Part shown: piece by piece, positions 9,608-44,901 of the stretch
Layout of the letters: each line of letters begins with the position of its first letter
How positions within the stretch are numbered: position 1 is the first letter of the stretch
NCBI GenBank assembly: GCA_051294905.1
Contig: CM119372.1
Span: 15,316,001-15,380,000, forward strand
Direction: 5' to 3'
DNA length: 64,000 nucleotides
DNA from: Botryllus schlosseri
Lineage: Eukaryota
Made by a program: the position numbers and the translations under genes
Notes under the pieces: generated by a model
Database searches by the model: none
What the model was told of the DNA's origin: nothing
Seen by the model: the letters and a program-made list of their open reading frames with translations, nothing else

Positions 9608-9684
9608 CTACACTTTTAGTGAATAAAAGCTTAGAAAGCCGTATGCTTATTGGTGGGTTTTCCACGAAAGGTCACGACAACGCT

Positions 9685-12600
9685 AGTAGTATAGTCGATC
9701 GCTCGCATGCGGCTATGGGGTTCTTATGGGCCCGCTGGTGAGGTGCCGCGAAACTCGTATTGGTGATGGCACCCTTTTGACCCCCCCTTCCGCTGGTGAG
9801 GTGCCATGTATTCTTATGGGATCTCTGGTGATGGTACCCTTTCGGGTATAGGCTTCGTCGGTGATGTGTCGTGAAAACTCGTGTTGGTGAGTCGTACTTT
9901 CAGACCCCTATCGCTCGTGATGTGCCATTGTTTCTTACGAGATCTCTGGTGAGGTGCCATGTGTTCTTATGGGATCTCTGGTGAGGTGCCATGTGTTCTT
10001 ATGGGTGCGGTCGTGATTCGTAGTTTTGGGTATAGGCATCTCTCGCATGGTGTGGAATATGTATCAGGTATGGTAAATAGTCATGTGATTGGATCTTAGT
10101 TAATGTGTATATTCCAAATTACGGCGAGTACGACAATGATATATCGTTATTCTTATGGACGCGGTGATGATTCGTACTTTCAGGCATCTCTCGACCGGTG
10201 TTGAATATGTATCAAGTAAATAGTCATGTGAATGAATCTTTGTTAATGTGTATATCGTGAAAACTCGTGGTCGTGACTCGCCTTTTTTGCTATAGGCGGT
10301 GGCGGTGATTCGCCTGTCGTGTATTCTCACGGGATCTGTGGTGACTCGCCATGTGTTCTTATGTGTGCGGTCGCATGCGGCTATTGCGTCTTATGGCGGG
10401 GGTGGCGAGCGGCTATTGATGCTAACACGAAACCCGGGGTGGCGAGCGGCACTTATTTCTTATGGCGGGGGTGGCGAGCGGCTATTGATGCTAACACGAA
10501 ACCCGGGGTGGCGAGCGGCACTTATTTCTTATGGCGGGGGTCGCAAGCGGCTCTTATTTCTTATGGCGGGGATCGCAAGCGGCTCTTATGTCTTATGGCG
10601 GGGCGGCATGCGGCTATTGCGTCTTATGGATGCGGCGATGATTCGTACTTTCGGGTATAGGCGGCGTGCTAACGTGAAAACCGGGAGGTGGCATGCTAAT
10701 GTTTTTAGGTACACGCGCGGCGACATGCTAACGATGATAATGTGTCTGTCATGTATTCTTACGGGATCTCTGGTGATGTGCCATTGTTTCTTATGGGTGC
10801 GACGGCATATCGTACTTTCGGATATAGGAATCTCTCACACGGTGTTGAATATGTATCAAGTAAATAGTCACGAGTATCGCTAAACAGGAAATTCACTAAA
10901 CCGCAGTGCAATGTGCGACTTTGGAAAACAGATGTTCGCGACCGCGTTTTGATATTTCTGACCCACTAAATACATCCGTTTTGGAAACGCGTCCTGTTGT
11001 GAAGATTTCGAGCGCGCACTATCGTATCGATTATTACACTAATCCAGTCAGTACTATTACATGCAGGAGTATTCAGTATTCAGCAACGACACGAAAAGCG
11101 ACCAACAAATAACCGCACTCGTAAATTAACACCTTAAAAAGTGTAAAATAGATTGCAAATCCCGCGATCGCTAACAAGATAATGGCTCTGGCATAACCAT
11201 TTTTAGTGACTTGGTGTTAAAGACATACCGATCGCTCACAAGGTAATATTTCGGTAATTAGTTTGTCACAGAACCGTCACAGTCGGTGATTCGAAAACCA
11301 ACAATTTGACACTTTCTGGTGGTCGCTATATGTTTTGACACTTCGGAACGCGGTTGACTTTAGTTGCGTGATACAAATCATGAGAATATTCAATCAATGT
11401 GTCAATTTGTCAACTTGAAATGTAACTCACTACACAAATCAAGTTGAATCGTATTTGAATGTATTGATTCGACCCGACTCAAATCCTTTGACAAATCCTA
11501 TTAACGCGATCTGTTGAATCGAACGTAACCTGAATATTACTGACGCCAACATTCACCCGCATCGGATCATTCACACATTCCACGCCGCTGTTTTAACACT
11601 TATAGAATCAATACCAACTATCTCTAACCCGATAATATTCAATCATTTTGGTAATTTGCCAACTTTAAATCCATTCGCGGGATGTACTAAAGGTAAATCC
11701 AAATAATCCAGAATGAAATATTTGGACTTTGACATTGCGTGAATTGAAATAGGTTTGACAAACATGACTACCAACTTTCACCCAGTCACATTTCAAGATT
11801 ATACTTTGAAACAATCCTTGAAACTGACAACTCTATTCACGACTCCGTTTCCGTTTGTAAAATAGAGTTTCAGAAATACTATCACTATGACAACTCAACA
11901 TTTTAACATCTCGCCATGCACAAACGAGTAAAATACAAAAACCTTGGTAAGTCAATCCGTTTGTAGTAACTCACCAAACCAAAACAAAAAGTGTCCGTAT
12001 GAAAAGTAGACAAGACTACGCGAGTAATCACTACAACCCACACAGTTGTATCCATATCCCATATTTTTTATTCAACTGTAAGATGAAGTAATTACTACTT
12101 GGCGCGCGACTTGAGATTAACACATTACATTTGAGTATACGAGATTTGAATGTCTGACCAACGTAGTTGAGAATTCTTACAATCGAACGCAGGTGTTATA
12201 TTGAAAATTTTCACGAATTGACACATTGATTTTGACATATGAGATTTTGTAATAGTCGATCATGACTTGATTATTAAATTATGATATTATTAGACCAGGT
12301 TGTGTTGAAGGTTATTACTATACCAACAAACTTTTCAGAAACATTGTTATTAACATATCGATTTGTAAAACTAGATTAACATGTCTGAAATGTTTTGATT
12401 GGGAAGATTAAGCCGTGTTCGTAAAAACCACGCAGCGTATTGTGGAAATCAGGAAATAATTTACAAATGTAATTGTCTCCAGTAACCAAGACTAAAGATG
12501 AAACAACAATTTTCTTTGTTGAACAATAACCGGTACAATACTTTATCGTCGTAATCTGCGGTGGGAATTGAAACACTTTCGCACATTTCCCGGTGTCAAG

Positions 12601-14400
12601 ATATCACACTAGGTGAATTGACATATCGCCGCTTGATTAATGCTTAATCCGTTCGCGCCATTTCACACACTTTGATCATTACAAAAGAAAAATTGGAATA
12701 TGTTTGCTAGATGCATTCAATTCAGTTAGAAATGTCTGGTACACAACAATCGTAATATCAATGAAGTACTTGCTACACTGTAATTCACTTAACGTGTTTT
12801 GCATTGTTGTTCATTTGTAGTATTGATTGTTTTTGAACCCCCAAATAATAATTCCCCGACATGAAACCAAACCGCTGAAAGTCGTTACCATCACAACGAA
12901 ACAATTTGTACGATGTTTGCCAAATGTATCCTATAGTTAGGTGTACTAGAATTATTTGTCTAACACATACACCGACAATGCAATCGAAAATTTTTCCGTT
13001 GTCATTCGCTAGAGTAAATGTCATCACAATACTCTGTCACTAAAAGACGTTACTTGTATGTGATTGAATCCCTAACAATTATCTCACTAAACCGAACTCC
13101 AAAGAAATTTTACTCACTCGACGGATATGAAACAGCGTCGCTTAATCGGTCTATATCGTTTTTCTAAAGGTAAATCATATCCATCCAATAGAAAACAATT
13201 TTCACTAGCTTGGTAATGAAACCGAAGTCTTCATTCGATATTTTGTTTGTGTCAAATACTTTGTAATAAACACATTTGAGTGGTTGAGCTTTACATCATC
13301 AAGCTGTTATTTGTAAATCAAGATTTCGGTAAACTTGTAAATGTATCGTTTAACTAACCGACATTTAGTGATTGGCGAACATACCAAACGATACACACCC
13401 ATCTCCGAAATACTGCATTGATCTTAATTTCCACCATCGTGATAATCGAAGTACATTTCTTTCGAATTCGTAACAACCGACTACGACACGATAAATTTTT
13501 TACAAGTTACGCTTAGAAGATTGGTTGCATATCGCGAAAAAAATAATATACCACTCATATTGGTACTGTTACTCCATTGATCGATATTTTCAAACGAGTA
13601 AAATTTATTACTTGAGTTTCTCCGCTTAATGTAAATGAAAACTCAGCCGTCTTTTAACATCACAAAGACATTGATAAAAAGTAGGCAATCAAACACAACA
13701 CTTTGTACGACACTAATTATTGTTCCACACATCTCATTTCATACTAAGTGTACACGAAAGATATTCATGACACATGAAAATATTCGCTCATGCTACGAAC
13801 ATACGCAATGATTGGTGGTGCTTCCAAACTGTTTCGATATCACAAGACCTTTATTGTCTGAATGGGTGTTCATGTATCTTAATAATCAAATAGTTCAACA
13901 CAGAACTAGAACTAGTACTAACAGAAACATCACAGAGTTGTTTACACAAAAGTTTGTATATGTGCACAGTATGCGAATACCATGTGTAAGTCCAGCACAA
14001 TTGCGATATCCATCCGAGTTTAGTTAACACAAATTTATTACAACGGAGCCACGTAAACTTTCGTGAAAGAAAAGCATACTCACTCCCAGAGGGTTATGTC
14101 AATGCCATAGCAGTACCCCAACAACAAAGTACATATGTTTCTAGTCACGGTCCTTACATCTTTCACTTAGATCAGGGGTGGGCAAACTACGGCCCGCGGG
14201 CCGCATGCGGCCCGCCACACCGTTCTGTGCGGCCCGCGAGAGTCTAAAGAAACTTTTTAAAAATATTGATAAAATCCGTACTAAAAATCGAATAAATGCA
14301 GGGACTTCAATAAACTTTTTCTTAGTTTATTTCACCATGATAATTTGAAGACAGTGGCTCTAAAACTGGGGTGCGCCCCCTCGACTGAAAAATTTTTTCG
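9685..14400 (+). repeat. E1 left arm of 4.7-kb inverted repeat
   Basis: Reverse complement of 17648-22375 except a 12-bp deletion near 12042 and a handful of substitutions. Confidence 0.97.
9700..10870 (+). repeat. E1 subterminal patchwork of short repeats (mirrored at about 21190-22360)
   Basis: Recurrent motifs TTCTTATGGG, GGTGAGGTGCC, CGTACTTTCGGGTATAGG, GTGAAAACTCGT; a 69-bp unit duplicated at about 10390-10540. Confidence 0.9.
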
Positions 14401-15268
14401 CGCTTCGCGCGATTCTCGTTCACGTCATGATTGTTGCTGTGTATTTAGTCTAAATTTCATATTGAAAAATTCCTGATCCACATTCGTAACCTTCCGTGCC
14501 ATCTAACTATCTGTTAGGTTTGCTAGCACCCAATAGTTGCGTTTTGTGATATGACGATAAGGGTGGCGCGAAATTTTTCACCATCATAAGGGGGGCGTGT
14601 CTCAAAAAGTTTGAGAGCCACTATTTTAAGGTAAATACTTCCTTACTTTATGTTTAATTTCTGGCGCGACAGCCCGATCTCAAGGCCCACGCAGTTTGAA
14701 AGGTTTCAACTATATATACTAAACATCACAGAAATCCTAAACGAGATTGATGTAACTCGGATAACTCGGATAACTTCAGTTTTAATTATTTCAGTGATGT
14801 GCTTATACAAACGATTTACGCGTGTCTTAGGTAGATTCGTTCTCTGTATGTGTAGAATTGGGGTATTTATATTTTATCCACACATCGTAGATGGGTGTTT
14901 GAAGCTAACATGGTTATGATGCTGTGAGTATTGTGTGTCCTGGAACTGAACCAAAAGTGGAATTAGTAAATCTATGAACAGATCGCTGCTCATAGATTTA
15001 AATTCCAATCCTGTTCTAAGAATCGGGACAACCGATTTTCATCTATATAGTTTTGACAAATTGGTTATTGAAGTCGACCAGCCAATGAAATCTCGCCATG
15101 TTTCTGACGTGTGTACGATATCATCAAAGCAATGTTTGTTTTGTTTTAAATAGGAACATATATAATCTCCATGTCCTCACTATATAATCTCAATTTTATA
15201 CAATGTGGCCCGCGAATGAATTTAGATGTTGAATGCGGCCCGCGAGCTCAAAAGTTTGCCCACCCCTG
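14173..15268. mobile_element. hAT MITE inserted in E1
   Basis: TIR CAGGGGTGGGCAAACT / AGTTTGCCCACCCCTG; perfect TSD ACTTAGAT (14165-14172, 15269-15276); the homologous E2 site (about 36443-36470) is empty. Confidence 0.95.
14352..14623 (-). mobile_element. Small hAT MITE nested in the 14173-15268 MITE; same family as 47515-47834
   Basis: CAGTGGCTCT...AGAGCCACTA ends; reverse complement aligns with 47515-47660; degenerate TSD TTTGAAGA/TTTTAAGG. Confidence 0.8.
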
Positions 15269-16029
15269 ACTTAGATCAATCTACTTTGCTAACGAAAAGT
15301 GCTGAGTCATCACATGATCGCTCTCACAACAAAACAGCTAGTAGATATTATCATTCAAAATATTCCTAACCCTTTACACACCAGTAACAAATCATACAAC
15401 GAATATGTTTTGTGGGTCGAATTGTTGTTCAGTGTCAAGTCTACCTGTTGAAACGTACATTAAAACAACACAGTCACAATCAAATTAAAACCACGAATCT
15501 ATTTTCATTTCCTCGCAAACTGTCACATACAGAAAAATAAATTTAATTTCCCAAAACATACTTGTAACCAATCGCTTTCATTAAACACACAACACCATAA
15601 TAGTATTTACTTTCTACAACATAGACATTCCGGTGTAGTCAAGAAATATTTTTAATAGTCAAAATCATCGACATCTGTTTACGGTGCTAGTGTGTGCATG
15701 TCATACATGTGGGCCCGTATTAAAATGGACACGACACGACTGACTGTAAGGAGATAGAAGTCTATCGCATAGATTTACATGTGGTCTTCGCTACGGTTTC
15801 AAAAAACGAATCATCTCTTTTGCATTGATCTAGACCGAGCAAGTTAGTTAATGACCATGATTGTGTTTGTCATATGTGAATGATAGGGTTACTGTCAAAT
15901 CTACATACAACAATCTTCTGACGATCATAATAGCAATTTCATTTTCCGCCCCTTCATAATTGTACAACTCGGTAACTACGTTTAACAAGACCAATCACAC
16001 TACCAGCGTTGAACACAAGATACCTACCC

Positions 16030-16430
16030 AAGTAAAATTATCATTTTCACCTAGAGGTCCACCGTCACCTAACTAAAATACCATTGTCCTTTGGAGATTT
16101 ATCGTTTACCCAGTGTAACAATCCCCTTTTCACTTGGAAATCTATTTTTGTCCTGGATAACAAACCTTTTTCACTTGGAAATATATTTTTTCTCTTGGTA
16201 ACAAACCTTTTTCACTTGGAAATATATTTTTTCTCTTGGTAACAAACCTTTTTCACTTGGAAATATATTTTTTTTCCCTGAGCAACAAACCATTTTCACT
16301 TGGCGGGTCGTCGTTTACCTTAATAAAAATATCATTTTCCTTTGGAGATCCGGCGTTTACCTAGTGTAACAATAAATTTTCTCTTGGTCATCTAGCTTTT
16401 CCTAGAGTAACAAAACCATTTTCATTTTGA
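16030..16430 (+). repeat. Degenerate 41-bp tandem array in E1
   Basis: Units like AACAAACCTTTTTCACTTGGAAATATATTTTTTCTCTTGGT, about 10 copies. Confidence 0.9.
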
Positions 16431-17647
16431 AATCTGACAAACACACCTGACAATTTGGTATTTGTTGTATTGACGATAGTTTGAAATAGATTACAACGAA
16501 CAGTGACGGAAATATACACGGACTACCGGTTACAGAGTATATACCTCCATCAGTCGTATCACATCAATATCATCGGTTAACCACATACAATATACTCTTG
16601 TACACAGAAATGTATGTTTCGGAAAATTGGACAATAGGCTTCGATAGTTCTGTGATGTCCGGGTTCGTGCTTTGGATTTTCCAGAGTCAAAATGTCTGAA
16701 TAAAACACCTCCTCGACGATGGTTGGTATGTGGATAACGGTGTTCGGAAAACGGTTGGATTTATGTTACCCATCGTGATAACAACTCCAGGTCGAGTTTT
16801 CCCCCCTGCATGTTTACTATATTGTGTCTTTATTGGTCAGTGTATGTCTCGACATTCAGTTTGAAATCGGAAACCCTGATAAAGTACGTAACCGGATCCG
16901 GATATCAACTCTGAATCGATAAACCAATGAACAATATTCAAAGTAAACATGTTACACCCTGTGTTTCCACGAAAAAAAAAAACCATCCACACATACGTCG
17001 CGCTTGTTTGCCCACAACAGTATACGCGTAAATGGAGGTGTGTGACATTGCATGCAATGTGTTGGTATACAAACATCGGGGAGTAAGCCTTCGATCCACA
17101 GACATTATCATAGCCGGTAGTTTTGATGTAGATCGAATGTCATCACACCCGATAACAATGTCATACCAATAAGCCACATTGCAATGACTCTGAGTCAATC
17201 TGAAGCAGGACATACAGACACCGTTCACTGATTTACTCGATTGTTTTATCGCGTTGTAACATTACAAGATAGTCATGACCCTAGCTCCGGACAGACGTCC
17301 CAGATCAATTGGATACATGGGTCAATATCCATCGTGTTGTCGAGACCGAAGTTTTCTGCTGAGACTGCAGCGTTTCACCAATGTGAACTATCGAAGTACG
17401 GTGCTTGAAATGATTGTGATCAGTCTTTCAGTCACGATGCAAGGATGTCGCTACTCCCACATAACGACTCCAGATAAATATCGTGAACAGTGATTCTGAA
17501 AATCTCGGACTGATACTGTGATCCAATAAGGTATGTTTCTGTGGAATGAAGACTGCAATCGTACACCACAATAGAACACTACCTCGCGATTTCACACACA
17601 ATCATAAAACACATCATCGTAAGGGTCCAGTTCGTCCGGCAACATTT

Positions 17648-17875
17648 CGAAAAAATTTTTCAGTGGAGGGGGCGCACCCCAGTTTTAGAACCACTGTCTT
17701 CAAATTATCATGGTGAAATAAACTAAGAAAAAGTTTATTGAAGTCCCTGCATTTATTCGATTTTTAGTACGGATTTTATCAATATTTTTAAAAAGTTTCT
17801 TTAGACTCTCGCGGGCCGCACAGAACGGTGTGGCGGGCCGCATGCGGCCCGCGGGCCGTAGTTTGCCCACCCCTG
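17648..17875 (-). mobile_element. Truncated mirror copy of the nested hAT MITE (one TIR plus one TSD copy)
   Basis: Reverse complement of 14173-14400, followed by ATCTAAGT (reverse complement of the TSD). Confidence 0.95.
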
Positions 17876-20800
17876 ATCTAAGTGAAAGATGTAAGGACCG
17901 TGACTAGAAACATATGTACTTTGTTGTTGGGGTACTGCTATGGCATTGACATAACCCTCTGGGAGTGAGTATGCTTTTCTTTCACGAAAGTTTACGTGGC
18001 TCCGTTGTAATAAATTTGTGTTAACTAAACTCGGATGGATACCGCAATTGTGCTGGACTTACACATGGTATTCGCATACTGTGCACATATACAAACTTTT
18101 GTGTAAACAACTCTGTGATGTTTCTGTTAGTACTAGTTCTAGTTCTGTGTTGAACTATTTGATTATTAAGATACATGAACACCCATTCAGACAATAAAGG
18201 TCTTGTGATATCGAAACAGTTTGGAAGCACCACCAATCATTGCGTATGTTCGTAGCATGAGCGAATATTTTCATGTGTCATGAATATCTTTCGTGTACAC
18301 TTAGTATGAAATGAGATGTGTGGAACAATAATTAGTGTCGTACAAAGTGTTGTGTTTGATTGCCTACTTTTTATCAATGTCTTTGTGATGTTAAAAGACG
18401 GCTGAGTTTTCATTTACATTAAGCGGAGAAACTCAAGTAATAAATTTTACTCGTTTGAAAATATCGATCAATGGAGTAACAGTACCAATATGAGTGGTAT
18501 ATTATTTTTTTCGCGATATGCAACCAATCTTCTAAGCGTAACTTGTAAAAAATTTATCGTGTCGTAGTCGGTTGTTACGAATTCGAAAGAAATGTACTTC
18601 GATTATCACGATGGTGGAAATTAAGATCAATGCAGTATTTCGGAGATGGGTGTGTATCGTTTGGTATGTTCGCCAATCACTAAATGTCGGTTAGTTAAAC
18701 GATACATTTACAAGTTTACCGAAATCTTGATTTACAAATAACAGCTTGATGATGTAAAGCTCAACCACTCAAATGTGTTTATTACAAAGTATTTGACACA
18801 AACAAAATATCGAATGAAGACTTCGGTTTCATTACCAAGCTAGTGAAAATTGTTTTCTATTGGATGGATATGATTTACCTTTAGAAAAACGATATAGACC
18901 GATTAAGCGACGCTGTTTCATATCCGTCGAGTGAGTAAAATTTCTTTGGAGTTCGGTTTAGTGAGATAATTGTTAGGGATTCAATCACATACAAGTAACG
19001 TCTTTTAGTGACAGAGTATTGTGATGACATTTACTCTAGCGAATGACAACGGAAAAATTTTCGATTGCATTGTCGGTGTATGTGTTAGACAAATAATTCT
19101 AGTACACCTAACTATAGGATACATTTGGCAAACATCGTACAAATTGTTTCGTTGTGATGGTAACGACTTTCAGCGGTTTGGTTTCATGTCGGGGAATTAT
19201 TATTTGGGGGTTCAAAAACAATCAATACCACAAATGAACAACAATGCAAAACACGTTAAGTGAATTACAGTGTAGCAAGTACTTCATTGATATTACGATT
19301 GTTGTGTACCAGACATTTCTAACTGAATTGAATGCATCTAGCAAACATATTCCAATTTTTCTTTTGTAATGATCAAAGTGTGTGAAATGGCGCGAACGGA
19401 TTAAGCATTAATCAAGCGGCGATATGTCAATTCACCTAGTGTGATATCTTGACACCGGGAAATGTGCGAAAGTGTTTCAATTCCCACCGCAGATTACGAC
19501 GATAAAGTATTGTACCGGTTATTGTTCAACAAAGAAAATTGTTGTTTCATCTTTAGTCTTGGTTACTGGAGACAATTACATTTGTAAATTATTTCCTGAT
19601 TTCCACAATACGCTGCGTGGTTTTTACGAACACGGCTTAATCTTCCCAATCAAAACATTTCAGACATGTTAATCTAGTTTTACAAATCGATATGTTAATA
19701 ACAATGTTTCTGAAAAGTTTGTTGGTATCGTAATAACCTTCAACACAACCTGGTGTAATAATATCATAATTTAATAATCAAGTCATGATCGACTATTACA
19801 AAATCTCATATGTCAAAATCAATGTGTCAATTCGTGAAAATTTTCAATATAACACCTGCGTTCGATTGTAAGAATTCTCAACTACGTTGGTCAGACATTC
19901 AAATCTCGTATACTCAAATGTAATGTGTTAATCTCAAGTCGCGCGCCAAGTAGTAATTACTTCATCTTACAGTTGAATAAAAAATATGGGATATGGATAC
20001 AACTGAGTTGGTATGTTTGTGGGTTGTAGTGATTACTCGCGTAGTCTTGTCTACTTTTCATACGGACACTTTTTGTTTTGGTTTGGTGAGTTACTACAAA
20101 CGGATTGACTTACCAAGGTTTTTGTATTTTACTCGTTTGTGCATGGCGAGATGTTAAAATGTTGAGTTGTCATAGTGATAGTATTTCTGAAACTCTATTT
20201 TACAAACGGAAACGGAGTCGTGAATAGAGTTGTCAGTTTCAAGGATTGTTTCAAAGTATAATCTTGAAATGTGACTGGGTGAAAGTTGGTAGTCATGTTT
20301 GTCAAACCTATTTCAATTCACGCAATGTCAAAGTCCAAATATTTCATTCTGGATTATTTGGATTTACCTTTAGTACATCCCGCGAATGGATTTAAAGTTG
20401 GCAAATTACCAAAATGATTGAATATTATCGGGTTAGAGATAGTTGGTATTGATTCTATAAGTGTTAAAACAGCGGCGTGGAATGTGTGAATGATCCGATG
20501 CGGGTGAATGTTGGCGTCAGTAATATTCAGGTTACGTTCGATTCAACAGATCGCGTTAATAGGATTTGTCAAAGGATTTGAGTCGGGTCGAATCAATACA
20601 TTCAAATACGATTCAACTTGATTTGTGTAGTGAGTTACATTTCAAGTTGACAAATTGACACATTGATTGAATATTCTCATGATTTGTATCACGCAACTAA
20701 AGTCAACCGCGTTCCGAAGTGTCAAAACATATAGCGACCACCAGAAAGTGTCAAATTGTTGGTTTTCGAATCACCGACTGTGACGGTTCTGTGACAAACT

Positions 20801-22375
20801 AATTACCGAAATATTACCTTGTGAGCGATCGGTATGTCTTTAACACCAAGTCACTAAAAATGGTTATGCCAGAGCCATTATCTTGTTAGCGATCGCGGGA
20901 TTTGCAATCTATTTTACACTTTTTAAGGTGTTAATTTACGAGTGCGGTTATTTGTTGGTCGCTTTTCGTGTCGTTGCTGAATACTGAATACTCCTGCATG
21001 TAATAGTACTGACTGGATTAGTGTAATAATCGATACGATAGTGCGCGCTCGAAATCTTCACAACAGGACGCGTTTCCAAAACGGATGTATTTAGTGGGTC
21101 AGAAATATCAAAACGCGGTCGCGAACATCTGTTTTCCAAAGTCGCACATTGCACTGCGGTTTAGTGAATTTCCTGTTTAGCGATACTCGTGACTATTTAC
21201 TTGATACATATTCAACACCGTGTGAGAGATTCCTATATCCGAAAGTACGATATGCCGTCGCACCCATAAGAAACAATGGCACATCACCAGAGATCCCGTA
21301 AGAATACATGACAGACACATTATCATCGTTAGCATGTCGCCGCGCGTGTACCTAAAAACATTAGCATGCCACCTCCCGGTTTTCACGTTAGCACGCCGCC
21401 TATACCCGAAAGTACGAATCATCGCCGCATCCATAAGACGCAATAGCCGCATGCCGCCCCGCCATAAGACATAAGAGCCGCTTGCGATCCCCGCCATAAG
21501 AAATAAGAGCCGCTTGCGACCCCCGCCATAAGAAATAAGTGCCGCTCGCCACCCCGGGTTTCGTGTTAGCATCAATAGCCGCTCGCCACCCCCGCCATAA
21601 GAAATAAGTGCCGCTCGCCACCCCGGGTTTCGTGTTAGCATCAATAGCCGCTCGCCACCCCCGCCATAAGACGCAATAGCCGCATGCGACCGCACACATA
21701 AGAACACATGGCGAGTCACCACAGATCCCGTGAGAATACACGACAGGCGAATCACCGCCACCGCCTATAGCAAAAAAGGCGAGTCACGACCACGAGTTTT
21801 CACGATATACACATTAACAAAGATTCATTCACATGACTATTTACTTGATACATATTCAACACCGGTCGAGAGATGCCTGAAAGTACGAATCATCACCGCG
21901 TCCATAAGAATAACGATATATCATTGTCGTACTCGCCGTAATTTGGAATATACACATTAACTAAGATCCAATCACATGACTATTTACCATACCTGATACA
22001 TATTCCACACCATGCGAGAGATGCCTATACCCAAAACTACGAATCACGACCGCACCCATAAGAACACATGGCACCTCACCAGAGATCCCATAAGAACACA
22101 TGGCACCTCACCAGAGATCTCGTAAGAAACAATGGCACATCACGAGCGATAGGGGTCTGAAAGTACGACTCACCAACACGAGTTTTCACGACACATCACC
22201 GACGAAGCCTATACCCGAAAGGGTACCATCACCAGAGATCCCATAAGAATACATGGCACCTCACCAGCGGAAGGGGGGGTCAAAAGGGTGCCATCACCAA
22301 TACGAGTTTCGCGGCACCTCACCAGCGGGCCCATAAGAACCCCATAGCCGCATGCGAGCGATCGACTATACTACT
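17648..22375 (-). repeat. E1 right arm of 4.7-kb inverted repeat
   Basis: Mirror coordinate sums are 32060 (outer) and 32048 (inner); the match breaks at 14400/17648. Confidence 0.97.
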
Positions 22376-31186: not shown

Positions 31187-33020
31187 CTGGACAAGACATA
31201 CATAAGTTTAACAGGGCTGAAGTAACCAATGGAAAGGATCGCTATCACATCTAATTCGAGCATCTCTTATATCAGTGTTTCTCAAATTCTTTCCCAACGT
31301 GTACCAGCGGTGCCAGCACTAATTCGATTTTTAACACATGGCGTACCTCCAAGTTGTTTTTCACTACACGGCTACCACCTAAATCAGTGGTTCTCAACCG
31401 CCGGTCCGCGACGACATTCCTGCCGGTCCGCCAAGCATATTAGAATTTTATACTTTAATTTCAAGATGCAATGTTGAAGGCTTGTTCATTGATAAAATAA
31501 ATAAAACATCAAATTTTAAACTGATTGATAACTTCCTGAGGTAACATTAGGGCTGGAAACATGTTCGATTTGACTTGAAGTTCAAGACGTGTCATTTGAC
31601 GATATGCGAGCGGCAAGTACACAGAACAGATACGAGCCGACTCCTCGCTAAACAGCGCAGTTTGATCATTGGTTTTCGATTCATTCATTTTGTGCAGGAC
31701 CGTAACTGGGGCACCACAAACCGCCCAATTGGAGAGGGGCCGAGCTTGAATAGGGCTCAAAATTATTTCGCAAATGAACATAAATCATAGCGTATTTATT
31801 TGAAACTTTTTCTAACATTTTTCAATTTCTTTTCGCGCTTTTCACGATTTAGTATCCCTAAATGTCTTGCTTATTAGGTGCCCTTTTCTGAGAAATACGT
31901 AATGATTTATTGGTATTTTGGCATCAGCCATTACCACGCCACGACGCACCAACACATAATCAAGCTTGGGCCAAAAATTTGGCCGCGAGAAAACTGCTTC
32001 ACTCGTGAATGATCGAAAATTTTCTCTATTGGCGCGATTAAGCTACGTAAACTCTCTGCTTACGCTGAGTAGAATGGATGTGCTCACAAGAGTAGTATAG
32101 TCGATCGGTCGTGACGGGCTATAGGGTTCTTATGGGCGGGGTGGTGAGGTGCCTGAAAACCGGGGGTGGTGAGGTGACCCTTATCTCTTATGGCGGGGGT
32201 GGTGAGGTGCCATTGTGTCTTATGGCGGGGGTGGTGAGGTGCCATGTGTTCTTATGGGTGCGTCGGCATATCGTACTTTCGGGTGTAGGCATCTCTCGCA
32301 CATCGTACTTTCGCATGTCGTACTTTCGCGTATAGGCTGTGTTGGTGATTCGGTATGTGTTCTTATGGGTGCGGTCGTGATTCGCCTTTTCGGGTATAGG
32401 CCGCGGTCGTGATTCGCCGTGAAAACTCGTGGTCGTGACTCGCCTTTTTTGCTATAGGCGGTTGCGGCGATTCGCCTGTCGTGTATTCTTACGGGATCTG
32501 TGGTGATTCACCATGTGTTCTTATGGGTGCGGTCGTGATTCGCACTTTCAGGCATCTCTCGCGCGGTGTTGAATATGTACGAGTCACCAACAATAACCGC
32601 GCAAACGGAAACGTGGTTTGTCGTGAGGATTAAGCAGTGCGTGCGACCTATATTTCGAATGACCTGTGCGCTGAATTATTTCTCGTCCAGCCGCTACTAT
32701 CGATTATTACACTATTCCATTCAGTGCGAAATAGTTTGATCGTAAATTATGATATATGATGTCGTAGTTTAGTCGTATCAAATGACCGATCGTGTTCTCT
32801 CTTTCCTCGCTATTGATTGCTACCTGAATAATATTTTCGGCTTATTCACTGTTTCGCGCCTACAAAATAGTCTGCTGTTCATAGTCACAGATTCATCGCG
32901 ATAGCACAATTTTCACACCTCGATCAGTAGAACAACACCGCGCTAACCCAGTTGTCGAATCACATAGGTCATACATTTACGTGAAATGAAATATTGTATT
33001 GCGATATACAAATATGCAAA

Positions 33021-33635
33021 CTATTCTTTCAATTCGACAAGTCTAGTTAACTGATCGATTTTCAATCTGCCGACACAGTTTTTAACACGAGTGAGTTGAT
33101 ATTTCTTCCCGGGTACGAGCGAGGCTTTGTTCCATTGATCCAAAACCACCTCACCAGTATCATCCTTCAATGTAAAACTGTGTAATTTCAACTCCTTTCC
33201 GGCACCAGAATTGACCATCTTCTCCTCTCGAGAAACACAAGTAGCGGCGATCGAGACGTATTCATCTTTATTTCCGTATACCGATTCACAGGTCAATAAT
33301 GGGTATTCTTCAGTCGTATGTCTCGATTTTCCATGTATGGTTACTGACGAAGCCCGTCCCAGTAATACAGCAGGTTTTCCAGTAAATTTGTCAATTTGGA
33401 TCCAACCGGATTTGACCATGAGTTTTTTTCGTCTGGAGAATGCTTTCTCAACGACCCCGAACAATTCACGATTGAAACACGTGAAAGATATCTCTTCGTT
33501 ATTACCGTCGATGAATATACCTTTGATATATTGGCTAACGCCACCTCTTTTGGGTGATGAGACGAATTTGACGCCGACGTGAAAATTTGAAGCGGCTCCG
33601 ACTTGCATAGTGTTAATGATGCTGTTCGATGCCAT
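33021..33635 (-). CDS. Putative tandem OB-fold (RPA-like) ssDNA-binding protein, 204 aa, intronless, copy 1
   Basis: ATG-to-stop ORF; FIDGNNEEISFTCFN and FTLKDDTGEVVLDQWN..LVPGKKYQL resemble RPA OB-fold D.SG.I..T.F/W motifs; recognised by eye. Confidence 0.68.
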   Translation of the reverse strand: MASNSIINTMQVGAASNFHVGVKFVSSPKRGGVSQYIKGIFIDGNNEEISFTCFNRELFGVVEKAFSRRKKLMVKSGWIQIDKFTGKPAVLLGRASSVTIHGKSRHTTEEYPLLTCESVYGNKDEYVSIAATCVSREEKMVNSGAGKELKLHSFTLKDDTGEVVLDQWNKASLVPGKKYQLTRVKNCVGRLKIDQLTRLVELKE

Positions 33636-36600
33636 ATCGTTTGGTAAAGTGTCAACTTGAAATGTAACTCACTACACAAATCGAGTTGAATCGTATTTGA
33701 ATGTATTGATTCGACCCAACTCAAATCCTTTGACAAATCCTATTAACGCGATCTGTTGAATCGAACGTAACCTGAATATTACTGACGCCAACATTCACCC
33801 GCATCGGATCATTCACACATTCCACGCCGCTGTTTTAACACTTATAGAATCAATACCAACTATCTCTAACCCGATAATATTCAATCATTTTGGTAATTTG
33901 CCAACTTTAAATCCATTCGCGGGATGTACTAAAGGTAAATCCAAATAATCCAGAATGAAATATTTGGACTTTGACATTGCGTGAATTGAAATATATTGAC
34001 AAACATGACTACCAACTTTGATCCAGTCCCATTTCAAGATCATACTTTGAAACAATCCTTGAAACTGACAACTCTATTCACGACTCCGTTTCCGTTTGTA
34101 AAATAGAGTTTTAGAAATACTATCACTATGACAACTCAACATTTTAACATCTCGCCATGCACAAACGAGTAAAATACAAAAACCTTGGTAAGTCAATCCG
34201 TTTGTAGTAACTCACCAAACCAAAACAAAAAGTGTCCGTATGAAAAGTAGACAAGACTACGCGAGTAATCACTACAACCTACAAACATACCAACTCAGTT
34301 GTATCCATATCCCATATTTTTTATTCAACTGTAAGATGAAGTAATTACTACTTGGCGCGCGGTTTGAGATTAACACATTACATTTGAGTATACGAGATTT
34401 GAATGTCTGACCAACGTAGTTGAGAATTCTTACAATCGAACGATGGTGTTATATTCAAAGTTATCATGCTGTGGACAAAAGGATTGACGCATTGATTTGA
34501 CATATGAGATTTGTAATAGTCGATCATTACTTGATTATTAAATTATGACATTATTAGACCAGGGTTGTGTTGAAGGTTATTACGATACCAACAAACTTTT
34601 CAGAAACATTGTTATTAACATATCGATTTGTAAAACTAGATTAACATGTCTGAAATGTTTTGGTTGGGAAGATTAAGCCGTGTTCGTAAAAACCACGCAG
34701 CGTATTGTGGAAATCAGGAAATAATTTACAAATATAATTGTCTCCAGTAACCAAGACTAAAGATGAAACAACAATTTTCTTTGTTGAACAATAACCGGTA
34801 CAATACTTTATCGTCGTAATATGCGGTGGGAATTGAAACACTTTCGCACATTTCCCGGTGTCAAGATATCACACTAGGTGAATTGACATATCGCCGCTTG
34901 ATTAATGCTTAATCCGTTCACGCCATTTCACACACTTTGATCATTACAAAAAACAAATTGGAATATGTTTGCTAGATGCATTCAATTCGGTTAGAAATGT
35001 CTGGTACACAACAATCGTAATATCAATGAAGTACTTGCTACACTGTAATTCACTTAACGTGTTTTGCATTGTTGTTCATTTGTAGTATTGATTGTTTTTG
35101 AACCCCCAAATAATAATTCCCCGACATGAAACCAAACCGTTGAAAGTCGTTACCATCACAACGAACCAATTTGTACGATGTTTGCTAAATGCATCCTATA
35201 GTTAGGTGTACTAGAATTATTTGTCTAACACATACACCGACAATGCAATCGAAAATTTTTCCGTTGTCATTGCTAGAGTAAATGTCATCACAATACTCTG
35301 TCACTAAAAGACGTTACTTGTATGTGATTGAATCCCTAACAATTATCTCACTAAACCGAACTCCAAAGAAATTTTACTCACTCGACGGATATGAAACAGC
35401 GTCGCTTAATCGGTCTATATCGTTTTTCTAAAGGTAAATCATATCCATCCAATAGAAAACAATTTTCACTAGCTTGGTAATGAAACCGAAGTCTTCAGTC
35501 GATATTTTGTTTGCGTCAAATACTTTGTAATAAACACATTTGAGTGGTTGAGCTTTACATCATCAAGCTGTCATCTGTAAATCGAGATTACATCCGACTT
35601 GTAACTCTATCGTTTAACTAACCGAGTTGTATGCACAGTTTGATATTTTGGTCATTTAGTGATTGCTGAACATACCAAACGATGCACACCCACCGCCGAA
35701 ATACTGCGTTGATCTTAATTTCCATCATCGTGATAATCGAAGTACATTTCTTTCGAATTCGTAACAACCGACTACGACATGATAAATTTTTGACAAGTTT
35801 ACTTAGAAGGTTTGTTGCATATCGCGAAAAATAATATACCACTCATATTGATACTGTTACTTCATTGATCGATATTTTCAAACGAGTAAAATTTATTACT
35901 TGAGTTTCTCCGCTTAATGTAAATGTAAAGTCAGTCGTCTTTTAACATCCCAAATACATTGATAAAAAGTAGGCAATCAAACACAACACTTTGTACGACA
36001 CTAATTATTGTTCCACACATCTCATTTCATACTAAGTGTATACGAAAGATATTCACGACACATGAAAATATTCGCTCATGCTACGAACATACGCAATGAT
36101 TGGTGGTGCTTTCAAACTCTTTCGATATCACAAGAATTTTATTGTCTGAATGGGTGTTCATGTATCTTAATAATCAAATAGTTCAACACAGAACTAGTAC
36201 TAACAGAAACATCAGAGAGTTGTTTACACAAAAGTTTGTATGTGTACAGTATGCGAATACCATGTGTAAGTCCAGCACAATTGCAGTATCCATCCGAGTA
36301 TAGTCAACACAAATTTATTACAACGGAGCCACGTAAACTTTCGTGAAAGAAAAGCATACTCACTTCCAGAGGGTTATGTCAACACCATAGCAGTAAATCA
36401 GCTACTCCAACAACAGAGTACATATGTTTTCTAGTTACGGTGCTTACATCTTACACACAAATCAATCTAGTTTGCTAACGAAAAGTGCTGAGTCATCAAG
36501 TGATTGGCCTAGCAACAAAACAACTAGTAGATATTATCATTCAAAATATTCCTAACCCTTTACACACCAGTGACAAATCATACAACGAATATGTTTTGTG

Positions 36601-37221
36601 GGTCGAATTGTTGTTCAGTGTCAAGTCTACCTGTTGAAACGTACATTAAAACAGCGCAATTCAATTAAAACCACGAATCTATTTTCATTTCCTCACAAAC
36701 TGTCACATACAGAAAAATAAATTTTATTCCGCCAAAACATACTTGTAACCAATCGCTTTCATTAAACACACAACACCATAAAAGTATTTACTTTCTACAA
36801 CATAGACATTCCGACGTAGTCAAGAAATATTTTTATTAATCAAAATCATCGACTTCTGTTTACGGCGTTAGTGTGTGCATGTCATACATGTGGGATCCGT
36901 ATTAAAATGGACACGACACGACTGAATGTAAGGAGATAGAAGTCTATCGCATAGATTTACATGTGGTCTTCGCTACGGTTTCAAAAAACGAATCATCTCT
37001 TTTGCATTGATCGAGACCGAGCAAGTTAGTTAATGGCCATGATTGTGTTTGTCATATGCGAATGATAGGGTTACTGTCAAATCTACATACAACAACCTTC
37101 TGGCACTCATAATAGCAATTTCATTCTCTCCCTTCGTAATTGTAGACTCACGACAAGTATATTGTACAACTCGACAGCTACGTTTAACAACACCAACGAC
37201 ACTAAACATACGATACCTACC

Positions 37222-37750
37222 CAAGTAAAATTACCATTTTCACTTGGAGGTCAGTCGTTACCTGAGTAAAAATACCGATATTCTTTGAAGATTTATCGTT
37301 TAATCAGAGTAACAAAACATTTTCACTTGGGGGTCTATCGTTTCCAAGAGTAACAAGCCGCCTTTCCTTTGGAAATCTATTTTTTCTCTGGATAACAAAC
37401 CTTTATCACTTGGAAATATATTTTTTTCCCTGAGCAACAAACCTTTTTCACTTGGGAATATATTTTTTCTCTGGATAACAAACCTTTTTTACTTGGAAAT
37501 ATATTTTTTCTCTGGGTAACAAACCTTTTTCACTTGGAAATATATTTTTATCCTACAGCAACAAACCATTTTCACATGGAAAACTACTTTTACCTAGAGT
37601 AACTAATAATTTTCTTTTGGAAATATATTTTCTCCCTGGGTAACAAACCCGTTTCGTTTGGAAAACTATCATTTACCTGAGTACCAATACCGTTTGCACT
37701 TGGAAATCTATCTTTTCTCTAGGTAACAATACCATTTTCGTTTTTGAAAA
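37222..37750 (+). repeat. Degenerate 41-bp tandem array, E2 left arm
   Basis: AACAAACCTTTTTCACTTGGAAATATATTTTTTCTCTGG(A/G)T-like units, about 13 copies. Confidence 0.9.
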
Positions 37751-38581
37751 CTGACAACCACACCCGACAATTCGATATTTTTGTATATTGTTACAACGGG
37801 CAGTGACAAAATATACACCAACAACGACTCCGATACATTTGTGCAATCGCATATTTACTTGTGTTGGTGCATCCCATCAAAATCATCGGTTACCCACATG
37901 CAATGTGCTCTTGTATATCGAAATGTATGTTTGGGAAATTGGACAATAGGTTTCGATAGGTCTGTGATGTCCGGGTTCGTGCTTTGGATTTTCCAGAGTC
38001 AAAATGTCTGAATAAAACACCTCCTCGACGATGGTTGGTATGTGGATAACGGTGTTCGGAAAACGGTTGGATTTATGTCACCCATCGCGATAACAATTCC
38101 AGGTCGAGTTTTCCCCGCATGTTTACTATATTGTGTCTTTATTGGTCATGTATGTCTCAACATTCAGTTTGAAATCGGAAACTCTGATAAAGTACGTAAC
38201 TGGATCCGGATATCAACTCTGAATCGATAAACCAATGAACAATATTCAAAGTAAACATGTTACACCCTGTGTTTCCACGAAAAAATACCATCCAGACATA
38301 CGTCGCGCTTGTTTGCCCACACCAGTATATGCGTAAATGGAGGTGTGTGACATTGCATGCAATGTGTTGGTATACAAACATCGATCCACAGACATTATCA
38401 TAGCCGGTAGTTTTGATGTAGATCGAATGTCATCACACCCGATAACAATACCAATAAGCCACATTGCAATGACTCTGAGTCAATCTGAAGCATGACATAC
38501 AGACACACAAACATGGAACCGTAACATGGGTTATTCGCACGACGGTGAAAGTGAACTATACAGCATATACCAATAGAGCGT

Positions 38582-38863
38582 TCACAGTCGAATATGCGAA
38601 CCACGCACAATCACATACCCTGTTTTTAGTTGGATATGTACGAAACCAATAAATCGATACATTTCTGTTCCTTCTACGTCAATAATACAAGCGTCATTCC
38701 AATGCATCGCTCGAATGTAAGGTTCGTCGGGTGTAAAATCCATGTCAAATAACACCAAAGTGTGCTTTCCGTGTTTTATTATTTCCACCGACGCTTCTTG
38801 TCTGTGTCGTAACACTATGGTGCGGGGAGTTGAAAAACGGTGGATTGTGAAACGGATTGACAT
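38582..38863 (-). CDS. Hypothetical 93-aa protein in the E2 spacer
   Basis: ATG-started MSIRFTIHRFSTPRTIVL...GSHIRL*, protein-like composition, no family recognised. Confidence 0.35.
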   Translation of the reverse strand: MSIRFTIHRFSTPRTIVLRHRQEASVEIIKHGKHTLVLFDMDFTPDEPYIRAMHWNDACIIDVEGTEMYRFIGFVHIQLKTGYVIVRGSHIRL

Positions 38864-40131
38864 GACCAACAGAATCGACGTCAATAACCTTGTGGTGATG
38901 ACAGTTTCAAAATGCTCCGATATGACGAGACCAACCTCGATCTCCTGTGGCGATGACCGTTTCGAAATGTCGCCGGACGAACTGGACCCTTACGAAAGTG
39001 TGTAATATGCTTGCGTGTGAAATCACGAGGTAGTGTTCTATTGTGGTGTACGATTGCAGTCTTCATTCCACAGAAACACACCTTATTGGATCACAGTATC
39101 AGTCCGAGATTTGCACGATATTTATTTGGAGTCGTTATGTGGGAGTAGCGATATCCATGCATCGTGAATGAAAGACTGATCGCAATCATTTCGAGCACCC
39201 GTACTTCGATAGTTCACATTGGTCAAACGCTGCAGCAGAAAACTTCGGTGTCGACAACACGACGGATATTGACCGATGTATCCAATTAATCTGGGTGGTC
39301 TGTCCGGAGATAGGGTCATGACTATCTTGTAATGTTACAACGCGATAACACCATCGAATAAATCAGTGAACGGTGTCGAGATATCGATGTCATAGCGCGG
39401 ACTCAGAGTCATTGCAATGTGGCTTATTGGTATTGTTATCGGGTGTGATGACATTCGATCTACATCAAAACTACCGGCTATGATAATGTCTGTGGATCGA
39501 TGTTTGTATACCAACACATTGCATGCAATGTCACACACCTCCATTTACGCATATACTGGTGTGGGCAAACAAGCGCGACGTATGTCTGGATGGTATTTTT
39601 TCGTGGAAACACAGGGTGTAACATGTTTACTTTGAATATTGTTCATTGGTTTATCGATTCAGAGTTGATATCCGGATCCAGTTACGTACTTTATCAGAGT
39701 TTCCGATTTCAAACTGAATGTTGAGACATACATGACCAATAAAGACACAATATAGTAAACATGCGGGGAAAACTCGACCTGGAATTGTTATCGCGATGGG
39801 TGACATAAATCCAACCGTTTTCCGAACACCGTTATCCACATACCAACCATCGTCGAGGAGGTGTTTTATTCAGACATTTTGACTCTGGAAAATCCAAAGC
39901 ACGAACCCGGACATCACAGACCTATCGAAACCTATTGTCCAATTTCCCAAACATACATTTCGATATACAAGAGCACATTGCATGTGGGTAACCGATGATT
40001 TTGATGGGATGCACCAACACAAGTAAATATGCGATTGCACAAATGTATCGGAGTCGTTGTTGGTGTATATTTTGTCACTGCCCGTTGTAACAATATACAA
40101 AAATATCGAATTGTCGGGTGTGGTTGTCAGT

Positions 40132-40700
40132 TTTCAAAAACGAAAATGGTATTGTTACCTAGAGAAAAGATAGATTTCCAAGTGCAAACGGTATTGGTAC
40201 TCAGGTAAATGATAGTTTTCCAAACGAAACGGGTTTGTTACCCAGGGAGAAAATATATTTCCAAAAGAAAATTATTAGTTACTCTAGGTAAAAGTAGTTT
40301 TCCATGTGAAAATGGTTTGTTGCTGTAGGATAAAAATATATTTCCAAGTGAAAAAGGTTTGTTACCCAGAGAAAAAATATATTTCCAAGTAAAAAAGGTT
40401 TGTTATCCAGAGAAAAAATATATTCCCAAGTGAAAAAGGTTTGTTGCTCAGGGAAAAAAATATATTTCCAAGTGATAAAGGTTTGTTATCCAGAGAAAAA
40501 ATATATTTCCAAGTGAAAAAGGTTTGTTACCCAGGGAAAAAATAGATTTCCAAAGGAAAGGCGGCTTGTTACTCTTGGAAACGATAGACCCCCAAGTGAA
40601 AATGTTTTGTTACTCTGATTAAACGATAAATCTTCAAAGAATAACGGTATTTTTACTCAGGTAACGACTGACCTCCAAGTGAAAATGGTAATTTTACTTG
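40132..40700 (-). repeat. 41-bp tandem array, E2 right arm (one extra unit)
   Basis: Accounts for the 41-bp shift in mirror coordinates. Confidence 0.9.
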
Positions 40701-43700: not shown

Positions 43701-44286
43701 GGTTTGGTGAGTTACTACAAACGGATTGACTTACCAAGGTTTTTGTATTTTACTCGTTTGTGCATGGCGAGATGTTAAAATGTTGAGTTGTCATAGTGAT
43801 AGTATTTCTAAAACTCTATTTTACAAACGGAAACGGAGTCGTGAATAGAGTTGTCAGTTTCAAGGATTGTTTCAAAGTATGATCTTGAAATGTGACTGGA
43901 TCAAAGTTGGTAGTCATGTTTGTCAATATATTTCAATTCACGCAATGTCAAAGTCCAAATATTTCATTCTGGATTATTTGGATTTACCTTTAGTACATCC
44001 CGCGAATGGATTTAAAGTTGGCAAATTACCAAAATGATTGAATATTATCGGGTTAGAGATAGTTGGTATTGATTCTATAAGTGTTAAAACAGCGGCGTGG
44101 AATGTGTGAATGATCCGATGCGGGTGAATGTTGGCGTCAGTAATATTCAGGTTACGTTCGATTCAACAGATCGCGTTAATAGGATTTGTCAAAGGATTTG
44201 AGTTGGGTCGAATCAATACATTCAAATACGATTCAACTCGATTTGTGTAGTGAGTTACATTTCAAGTTGACACTTTACCAAACGAT

Positions 44287-44901
44287 ATGGCATCGAACAG
44301 CATCATTAACACTATGCAAGTCGGAGCCGCTTCAAATTTTCACGTCGGCGTCAAATTCGTCTCATCACCCAAAAGAGGTGGCGTTAGCCAATATATCAAA
44401 GGTATATTCATCGACGGTAATAACGAAGAGATATCTTTCACGTGTTTCAATCGTGAATTGTTCGGGGTCGTTGAGAAAGCATTCTCCAGACGAAAAAAAC
44501 TCATGGTCAAATCCGGTTGGATCCAAATTGACAAATTTACTGGAAAACCTGCTGTATTACTGGGACGGGCTTCGTCAGTAACCATACATGGAAAATCGAG
44601 ACATACGACTGAAGAATACCCATTATTGACCTGTGAATCGGTATACGGAAATAAAGATGAATACGTCTCGATCGCCGCTACTTGTGTTTCTCGAGAGGAG
44701 AAGATGGTCAATTCTGGTGCCGGAAAGGAGTTGAAATTACACAGTTTTACATTGAAGGATGATACTGGTGAGGTGGTTTTGGATCAATGGAACAAAGCCT
44801 CGCTCGTACCCGGGAAGAAATATCAACTCACTCGTGTTAAAAACTGTGTCGGCAGATTGAAAATCGATCAGTTAACTAGACTTGTCGAATTGAAAGAATA
44901 G
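44287..44901 (+). CDS. Putative tandem OB-fold (RPA-like) ssDNA-binding protein, 204 aa, copy 2
   Basis: Identical translation to 33021-33635. Confidence 0.68.
   Translation: MASNSIINTMQVGAASNFHVGVKFVSSPKRGGVSQYIKGIFIDGNNEEISFTCFNRELFGVVEKAFSRRKKLMVKSGWIQIDKFTGKPAVLLGRASSVTIHGKSRHTTEEYPLLTCESVYGNKDEYVSIAATCVSREEKMVNSGAGKELKLHSFTLKDDTGEVVLDQWNKASLVPGKKYQLTRVKNCVGRLKIDQLTRLVELKE

What the first reader, a model, noticed from the sequence alone, without database searches (positions are those of the whole stretch)
14173..17875. A half-copied MITE dates the E1 palindrome: the right arm was templated from the left arm after the MITE inserted
Seen: the left side has a complete hAT MITE with TSD ACTTAGAT (14173-15268). 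The right arm has only its first 228 bp in mirror image (17648-17875), and the arm boundary lies inside the MITE. E2 has the empty site. Inference: a copy picked up a host MITE, presumably while integrated, and then formed a new fold-back (or had its arms homogenised and then partly deleted). The palindromes therefore keep being regenerated and can carry host transposons.
Basis: partly seen in the sequence, partly recalled or inferred. Interest (0 to 1): 0.72.

Follow-up and report, generated by a model that had tools for sequence, protein, structure and literature searches.

The report
Transposon mirrored in Maverick palindrome arms
A small jumping element landed once in a 12.7-kb mirror-image element with Maverick (virus-like transposon) ends and is now partly present in both halves, which shows that one half was copied from the other after it landed; the half-copy was likely left by a later deletion, and the sequence does not show that such palindromes spread it.

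Summary
Observation confirmed. E1 (9685-22375) and E2 (32091-45831) are gene-poor palindromes with Maverick/Polinton ends and 6-bp TSDs. A complete 1,096-bp hAT-type MITE sits in E1's left arm, its first 228 bp are mirrored in the right arm, and E2 has the empty site. One insertion was copied arm to arm: same site, same TSD, same minority letters. But the MITE dates only the last copying. The palindrome is older, and 81 of 86 variable columns are mirrored in both arms of each element. The new junction has a 5-bp microhomology (chance 0.5%) and removes 3.27 kb, including the loop ORF. Three routes give this product: both arms filled, then a one-sided deletion (0.50); a whole-arm fold-back during replication (0.25); a local template switch in place (0.18). 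Left-to-right direction is therefore unproven. Spread after the junction formed is not shown: no listed contig bridges it, and some E1 letters are absent from three other samples (weak). Galileo transposons show the same copying of a passenger into both arms. The scan noted this palindrome family before, on other DNA of this genome.

The parts
9685..22375 (.). E1: 12,691-bp palindromic element with AGTAGT...ACTACT ends, flanked by 6-bp TSD AACGCT (9679-9684, 22376-22381)
9685..14400 (+). E1 left arm (4,716 bp)
17648..22375 (-). E1 right arm, mirror of the left; 6 substitutions and one 12-bp indel
14173..15268 (+). Complete hAT-type MITE, 16/16 TIR, 8-bp TSD ACTTAGAT (14165-14172, 15269-15276)
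   Evidence: many other flanks at its 3' end in run X16
14352..14623 (+). Older element nested in the MITE (TIR 13/15, TSD 6/8); the arm boundary falls 49 bp inside it; a 75%-identical relative lies at 47516-47762
17648..17875 (-). Mirror copy of the first 228 bp of the MITE; mismatches at 17665 and 17690
17648..17652 (+). Junction microhomology CGAAA, shared by the ancestral-type loop (E2 38960 region) and the mirrored MITE (left-arm 14396-14400)
14398..14412 (.). Predicted 6-bp-stem, 3-nt-loop DNA hairpin at the breakpoint inside the nested element
   Evidence: 30-nt window -7.4 kcal/mol, lowest 3.5% of MITE windows; noticed after the fact
15277..17221 (+). Former inner arm, now single in E1 (paired in E2); includes a 41-bp tandem array at about 16063-16434
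17222..17652 (+). Retained part of the ancestral-type loop (colinear with E2 39374 to 38960)
32091..45831 (.). E2: 13,741-bp sister palindrome, same ends, TSD CACAAG; arms to 38481 and from 39400; no MITE
36455..36462 (+). Empty MITE site in E2 left arm (mirror at 41460-41467)
38582..38863 (-). 93-aa loop ORF of E2, lying wholly in the part that E1 lacks; one 98%-identical full-length relative (P0002)
33021..33635 (-). 204-aa ORF with predicted OB-fold, single-stranded-DNA-binding features, in both E2 arms (mirror 44287-44901 +), absent from both E1 arms

Best explanation
One MITE insertion is present in both arms of an older Maverick-ended palindrome because one arm was copied from the other after it landed, and a later one-sided deletion between two 5-base matches likely removed most of the right-hand copy. 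Shown: single insertion, mirror copy, older palindromic architecture, mirrored lineage differences, microhomology junction, and 3.27 kb missing relative to the E2-type layout (2,821 bp of inner arm including 868 bp of MITE, plus 453 bp of loop with its ORF). Inferred: (1) a host hAT transposase inserted the composite MITE into one arm of an integrated parent; (2) the step that routinely makes the arms equal, most likely hairpin-templated copying while the element is replicated with a helper Maverick's enzymes, put the whole MITE in both arms (a precursor of about 15.9 kb); (3) a break or slip in the loop joined to the mirrored MITE at CGAAA; (4) the arms have drifted evenly since.
For: Single insertion: same site, mirrored orientation and same TSD; both arms share letters at 17740, 17754 and 17772 where most laid contig depth has another letter (E1-type at most 0.7-1.9% at 17754 and 0.6-3.7% at 17772 in the runs that show it). 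Arm copying is routine, so step 2 costs little: 81 of 86 variable columns in 2,745 are mirrored within each element, E1's terminal 2,358 bp are letter-identical in both arms, and the OB-fold ORF is missing from both E1 arms. E1 equals the E2 layout minus one continuous block. Microhomology of 5 bp has a chance of 0.55%. At least two rare letters lie in the single MITE part (15201, 15206) against 0.48 expected if the MITE were no older than the arm split (P=0.085, weak). Asymmetric central deletion is the usual fate of a long palindrome in mouse cells: 93% of 118 rearrangements (PMC8701086, section 5 read).
Against: No copy with the full MITE in both arms was seen; no genome is held for this window. 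A one-step fold-back needs one event instead of two and has the same signature: 2-8 bp inverted microhomology and spacers of median 3,428 bp in human fold-back duplications, against 3,247 bp here (PMC3907307, passages). Two of the 6 arm substitutions lie within 43 bp of the junction (P about 0.001, window chosen after the fact), which suits error-prone synthesis at a template switch at least as well. The mouse palindrome had no spacer, and the same review says short spacers stabilise palindromes; the E2-type loop is about 0.9 kb. The helper Maverick and copying outside the chromosome were not tested here.
Confidence: 0.5

Rival explanations
1. Whole-arm fold-back: a parent with the MITE in the left arm only was being replicated; the growing strand stopped in the loop at CGAAA, folded back onto TTTCG inside the MITE and copied the whole left arm outward; the product then integrated here.
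For: One event gives E1 exactly; inverted 5-bp microhomology; a predicted hairpin at the landing point; asymmetric snap-back genomes with a loop are common in helper-dependent AAV (PMC8235507, passages); fold-back signature in human DNA (PMC3907307).
Against: The palindrome already existed (E2), so no new fold-back is needed to explain mirroring. The junction loses the loop ORF that E2 and P0002 keep intact. E1-type letters at 15201, 19755, 19763 and 21057 have zero depth in all 3 other samples laid, weak evidence against an amplified E1 subfamily. The AAV authors themselves favour end-joining for such genomes.
Confidence: 0.25
2. Local template switch in place: the MITE landed in the left arm at this locus; a break or stalled fork in the loop primed on the MITE by microhomology, copied 228 bp plus a little outer arm, and rejoined the right arm by homology. 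Only a short tract was copied and the MITE never travelled.
For: One event, no remobilisation. It matches the two-switch scheme at human inverted repeats (one homologous, one microhomologous junction with extra point mutations nearby; PMC4352052, passages) and the repair model proposed for Galileo TIR extension (PMC3573991, passages). It explains 2 mismatches within 43 bp of the junction against 4 in the other 4,488 bp outside the MITE, and the apparent rarity of E1 letters in other samples.
Against: The MITE would be younger than the arm split, yet its single part holds at least 2 rare letters against 0.48 expected (P=0.085; one is a CpG change). E1's time since the arm split (0.13%) is short against its lineage history (3-7%), which leaves little time for insertion and rearrangement. 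Such switches are rarer than deletions (general knowledge, recalled).
Confidence: 0.18
3. No real copying: two independent MITE insertions, or an assembly artefact.
For: The junction was not seen bridged in the listed contigs, and the best run holds 0.86 of the stretch's words; E1's letter at 17284 has zero depth in all 4 runs.
Against: Identical site, orientation, TSD, nested element and minority letters in both arms; arms differ at 7 places with changes on both sides; intact TSDs at both ends; arm-private and mirrored E1 letters (19755, 21057) have low but real depth in X1.
Confidence: 0.05

Closest known systems
Galileo (P superfamily, Drosophila): TIR extension by an inserted transposon (PMC4168063, passages and section 6 read; PMC3573991, passages)
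   Same: A foreign element enters one inverted repeat and becomes part of both; copy 112 is 9,021 bp with 4.2/4.7-kb TIRs and no transposase; two copies with different TSDs share 1360 fragments in their TIRs, so the cargo moved.
   Different: Galileo is a cut-and-paste element with 7-bp TSDs. E1 has Maverick-type ends and a 6-bp TSD, its arms are 99.9% identical, and movement of the cargo is not shown here.
Mavericks/Polintons (PMC8097293, passages; PMC6431247, passages)
   Same: (AGT)2//(ACT)2 end motif, 6-bp TSD, terminal inverted repeats, length near the lower end of intact vertebrate elements (12,723-24,620 bp).
   Different: No polymerase, integrase or capsid ORF (longest stop-to-stop ORF 215 aa); arms of 4.7 and 6.4 kb against 46-1,447 bp.
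Insect polintons with TE cargo (bioRxiv 10.1101/2025.02.07.637071, passages)
   Same: polB-less polinton-related elements that carry an inserted transposon; about 2-kb TIRs that duplicate their content.
   Different: There the cargo is a LINE or LTR element, the elements keep other polinton genes, and amplification after insertion is shown; here the cargo is a MITE inside the arm and amplification is open.
Fold-back inverted duplications and snap-back defective genomes (PMC3907307; PMC8235507; passages)
   Same: Inverted arms, a single-copy spacer of a few kb and a short inverted microhomology at the spacer boundary.
   Different: Those arise from non-palindromic precursors; here the precursor was already a palindrome, so a deletion gives the same junction.

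Membership tests
Maverick/Polinton | 6-bp target site duplication | tested here: met
   AACGCT at E1, CACAAG at E2; feature from PMC8097293
Maverick/Polinton | (AGT)2//(ACT)2 end motif | tested here: met
   All 4 ends of E1 and E2
Maverick/Polinton | Terminal inverted repeats of tens to about 1,500 bp | tested here: not met
   Inverted repeats present but 4,716 and about 6,390 bp, outside the 46-1,447 bp of intact vertebrate elements
Maverick/Polinton | Protein-primed polymerase B, integrase and capsid genes | tested here: not met
   0 of 8 distinct ORFs of 100 aa or more inside E1/E2 reach a Pfam cut-off; 0 of 4 of them tested hit PHROGs; longest is 215 aa. So not an autonomous member; a non-autonomous dependant at most
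Maverick/Polinton (non-autonomous dependant) | A gene-carrying helper with the same ends in the same genome | not testable with these tools
   No genome held; end motif not found in viral contigs; earlier scan notes report such helpers, not checked by me
hAT-type MITE | 8-bp TSD and short TIRs | tested here: met
   TSD 8/8, TIR 16/16; that these mark hAT elements is recalled
hAT-type MITE | No transposase; many dispersed copies | tested here: met
   Longest ATG ORF in the MITE 89 aa; 29 contigs of run X16 leave the 3' end into unlike flanks (agreement 0.44)
hAT-type MITE | Autonomous hAT partner with matching TIRs | not tested
   No genome held
Fold-back / snap-back product | Short inverted microhomology at the spacer-arm boundary | tested here: met
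   5 bp, chance 0.55%; but equally the mark of a deletion from a both-arm precursor
Fold-back / snap-back product | Precursor with the copied segment on one side only | not testable with these tools
   Needs the other genomic copies or alleles

The most novel reading that the evidence does not exclude
Giant Maverick-ended palindromes are snap-back satellite genomes that rebuild one arm from the other each time they are replicated and reinserted. E1's new junction survived at least one further round (the innermost 25-45 bp of the arms stay unequal in both E1 and E2), so refolded variants stay mobile and ferry host MITEs, doubled, to new sites and possibly, in helper capsids, to new hosts.
Probability: 0.15. 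Interest if true: 0.72.

Novelty: new variant of a known kind. Interest (0 to 1): 0.42.

Why it matters
The insertion is a clean order-of-events marker: it proves that arm-to-arm copying in these Maverick-ended palindromes can carry a large insertion, not only point changes, and that it happened after the MITE arrived. Scored across the several hundred copies that earlier scan notes report (not checked by me), such markers would tell copying at mobilisation from conversion in place, an open question for Polinton replication, whose single-strand panhandle model is so far a proposal (PMC4046053, passages). On its own the locus is one junction with three possible histories, and the principle (passenger copied into both arms) is in print for Galileo.

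Tried and rejected
Whole-genome comparison: no genome held. Higher E1-E2 divergence in E1's unpaired centre (6.0-6.8% against 3.0%) looked like a dating signal but vanishes against the adjacent paired block (118/1,867 against 42/800, P=0.33). Direction of copying from polarised arm differences: 3 left, 2 right, no signal; the 2 mismatches inside the MITE have no outgroup. Summed contig depth as copy number: rejected, because overlapping contigs are added up and X1 was not fully counted; used only as presence, absence and upper bound. Only 4 of 24 listed runs were laid on the stretch. End motif in viral contigs: 0 matches. Earlier scan findings near this place, by sequence and in relatives: none. 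OB-fold ORF: 1 close relative among 98 candidates, no Pfam, PHROGs or PDB sequence hit; only the language-model look-alikes point to OB folds. Loop ORF: 1 relative, recognition score low. Paper searches that found no description of such palindromic Maverick dependants or of a MITE mirrored in them: (listings only); some searches served for mechanisms. I recall non-autonomous Polintons with long inverted repeats in Kapitonov and Jurka 2006 but did not see that paper; PMC3573991 mentions expansion of Polinton inverted repeats in one sentence. No supplements were read.
Full report
What is there. The window holds two related giant palindromes 9.7 kb apart. E1 runs 9685-22375 and E2 32091-45831. 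All four ends read AGTAGT...ACTACT and each element sits between a 6-bp duplication, AACGCT and CACAAG. This end motif with a 6-bp TSD is the commonest signature of vertebrate Mavericks, whose intact copies have TIRs of 46-1,447 bp (PMC8097293, passages). Neither element has a polymerase, integrase or capsid ORF: the longest stop-to-stop ORF is 215 aa and 0 of 8 distinct ORFs of 100 aa or more reach a Pfam cut-off. I read them as non-autonomous dependants of a Maverick. The helper is inferred: no genome is held for this window. Contigs of 4 runs of the same coded organism show that both the element body and the MITE are high-copy families. Earlier notes of this scan describe several hundred such palindromes on other DNA of this genome, some 'centre-deleted'; I could not check those counts, but the notes on centre-deleted copies raised my odds for a deletion.

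The observation. It holds at the stated coordinates. The MITE (14173-15268) has a 16/16 TIR and an 8/8 TSD; the right arm carries the mirror of its first 228 bp (17648-17875) and then the mirrored TSD; E2 has the empty site in both arms. The empty form is abundant in run X17 and the MITE's 3' end leads into many unlike flanks in run X16, so it is a dispersed host element. The MITE is a composite: an older element with decayed ends (TIR 13/15, TSD 6/8) is nested at 14352-14623, and the arm boundary falls 49 bp inside it. Because the nested ends are decayed and the outer ends are perfect, the composite likely jumped as one unit; near-identical nested sequence at raised depth in X17 (one 126-bp contig at 965 against 61-363 for most others listed) is therefore no evidence of carriage by palindromes.

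One insertion, copied. Site, orientation and TSD are the same in both arms. At 17740, 17754 and 17772 most laid contig depth has another letter than E1, yet both arms share E1's letter. Two independent insertions are not credible. Copying between arms after the MITE arrived is thus shown for this segment.

What the MITE dates. E1's arms differ by 6 substitutions and one 12-bp indel in 4,716 bp (0.13%); E2's by 2 substitutions, one 41-bp repeat unit and a replaced tract of about 22 bp at the arm-loop boundary. E1 and E2 differ by 3.0-6.8% per block. In 2,745 columns present in all four arms, 81 of 86 variable columns are mirrored within each element. E1's terminal 2,358 bp are identical in both arms although largely unlike E2's, and E2's OB-fold-like ORF is missing from both E1 arms. 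The palindromic layout is therefore far older than E1's last arm copying, and repeated equalising of arms is shown more strongly by these columns than by the MITE. The MITE adds that the process copies a large insertion, and bounds the last event.

The junction. E1's centre is colinear with E2's inner arm and the first 430 bp or so of E2's loop, then jumps into the mirrored MITE. Relative to the E2 layout, E1 lacks 2,821 bp of inner right arm (868 bp of it MITE) and 453 bp of loop. The lost loop part holds a 93-aa ORF that is intact in E2 and in one public relative at 98% identity. The join has 5 bp of microhomology, CGAAA; 0.55% of all possible loop-to-MITE joins reach 5 bp. A 6-bp-stem hairpin is predicted at the MITE side of the join (lowest 3.5% of 30-nt windows, noticed after the fact; its reverse strand has the GCGAAGC core that I recall as an unusually stable mini-hairpin). 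Two of the 6 arm substitutions lie within 43 bp of the join (P about 0.001, window chosen after the fact; 0.03 for the whole 228 bp).

Three routes, one product. Because the precursor was already a palindrome, the letters cannot separate: (B) MITE in both arms, then a one-sided deletion between direct CGAAA matches; (A) MITE in one arm, then a fold-back that rebuilds the whole right arm during replication; (C) MITE in one arm at this locus, then a local template switch that copies 228 bp and rejoins the right arm by homology. For B: equalising is routine in this family, asymmetric deletion is the common fate of long palindromes (93% of 118 rearrangements in a mouse line; PMC8701086, section 5), and the MITE looks slightly older than the arm split (at least 2 rare letters against 0.48 expected, P=0.085). 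Against B: no both-arm relative was seen, that mouse palindrome had no spacer, and A and C need a single event. For A: human fold-back duplications show 2-8 bp inverted microhomology and spacers of median 3,428 bp (PMC3907307, passages); AAV makes asymmetric snap-back genomes (PMC8235507, passages). For C: the two-switch scheme at human inverted repeats leaves extra point mutations by the microhomology junction (PMC4352052, passages), and a like repair was proposed for Galileo (PMC3573991, passages). I put B at 0.50, A at 0.25, C at 0.18 and artefact or double insertion at 0.05. These are judgements, not computed values. Only A and C make the right-hand MITE piece a copy of the left; under B the direction is unknown, and the polarised arm differences (3 left, 2 right) give none.

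Did the MITE travel? Under A, and under B if arms are equalised during mobilisation, it moved at least once with the element; under C it never did. Spread after the junction formed has no support yet. No listed contig bridges the junction (32 pieces shown of more than 132,000). E1-type letters at 15201, 19755, 19763 and 21057 have low depth in X1 and zero in X16, X17 and X18, and two more (20584, 20781) are nearly so (12 of the 40 listed rows examined, chosen for being informative). This leans against an amplified E1 subfamily but is weak: contigs drop rare variants, the tables are cut, and mirrored E1 letters in X1 stand at 2 to 15 times the depth of an arm-private letter, which leaves room for a few sister copies. 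E1's letter at 17284 has no depth in any run, so even X1 may not hold E1 fully.

Comparison and verdict. A passenger element copied into both inverted repeats, and then moved, is in print for Galileo (PMC4168063, section 6 and passages); polintons that stay mobile with transposon cargo are reported in insects (bioRxiv 10.1101/2025.02.07.637071, passages). I found no paper on near-wholly palindromic Maverick dependants or on a MITE mirrored in them (open library only; Kapitonov and Jurka 2006 not seen). The finding is real and useful as a marker in an unusual family, but the headline claims (dating the palindrome, direction, cargo) go beyond one locus. New variant of a known kind; interest 0.42.

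Noticed in passing
window 39375-39399 against 38482-38506: At E2's arm-loop boundary about 22 bp of the right arm are replaced by other letters while the left arm matches E1; as in E1, the innermost tens of bases of the arms are the least equal.
   Followed up: partly
window 11408-13359: E1 and E2 differ by only 2.1% here (41/1,945) against 5.3% in 13360-14172 and 6.3% in the centre; no long ORF explains it, so constraint or exchange between copies.
   Followed up: partly
window 33021-33635 (-) and 44287-44901 (+): 204-aa ORF with OB-fold, single-stranded-DNA-binding look-alikes at score 0.95, one 91%-identical public relative; E1 has unrelated sequence at this place in both arms.
   Followed up: partly
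window 9794-10883, 21177-22266, 32161-32592, 45330-45761: Degenerate 32-bp tandem repeats just inside all four ends, rearranged between E1 and E2; possible protein-binding sites near the replication origin (inference).
   Followed up: no
window 16063-16434, 37298-37739, 40138-40613: 41-bp tandem array in the inner arm; E2's arms differ by exactly one unit.
   Followed up: no
window 29919-31266 (-): Host exons between E1 and E2: a WSC domain (Pfam PF01822, E 2.3e-08) and a neighbouring ORF that looks like a sulfotransferase motif (recalled, no Pfam hit); E2 may lie in an intron of this gene.
   Followed up: partly
window 8894-8938, 49294-49335, 47516-47762: Other hAT-like MITE ends related to the outer MITE (83-84%) and a 75% relative of the nested element.
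   Followed up: no
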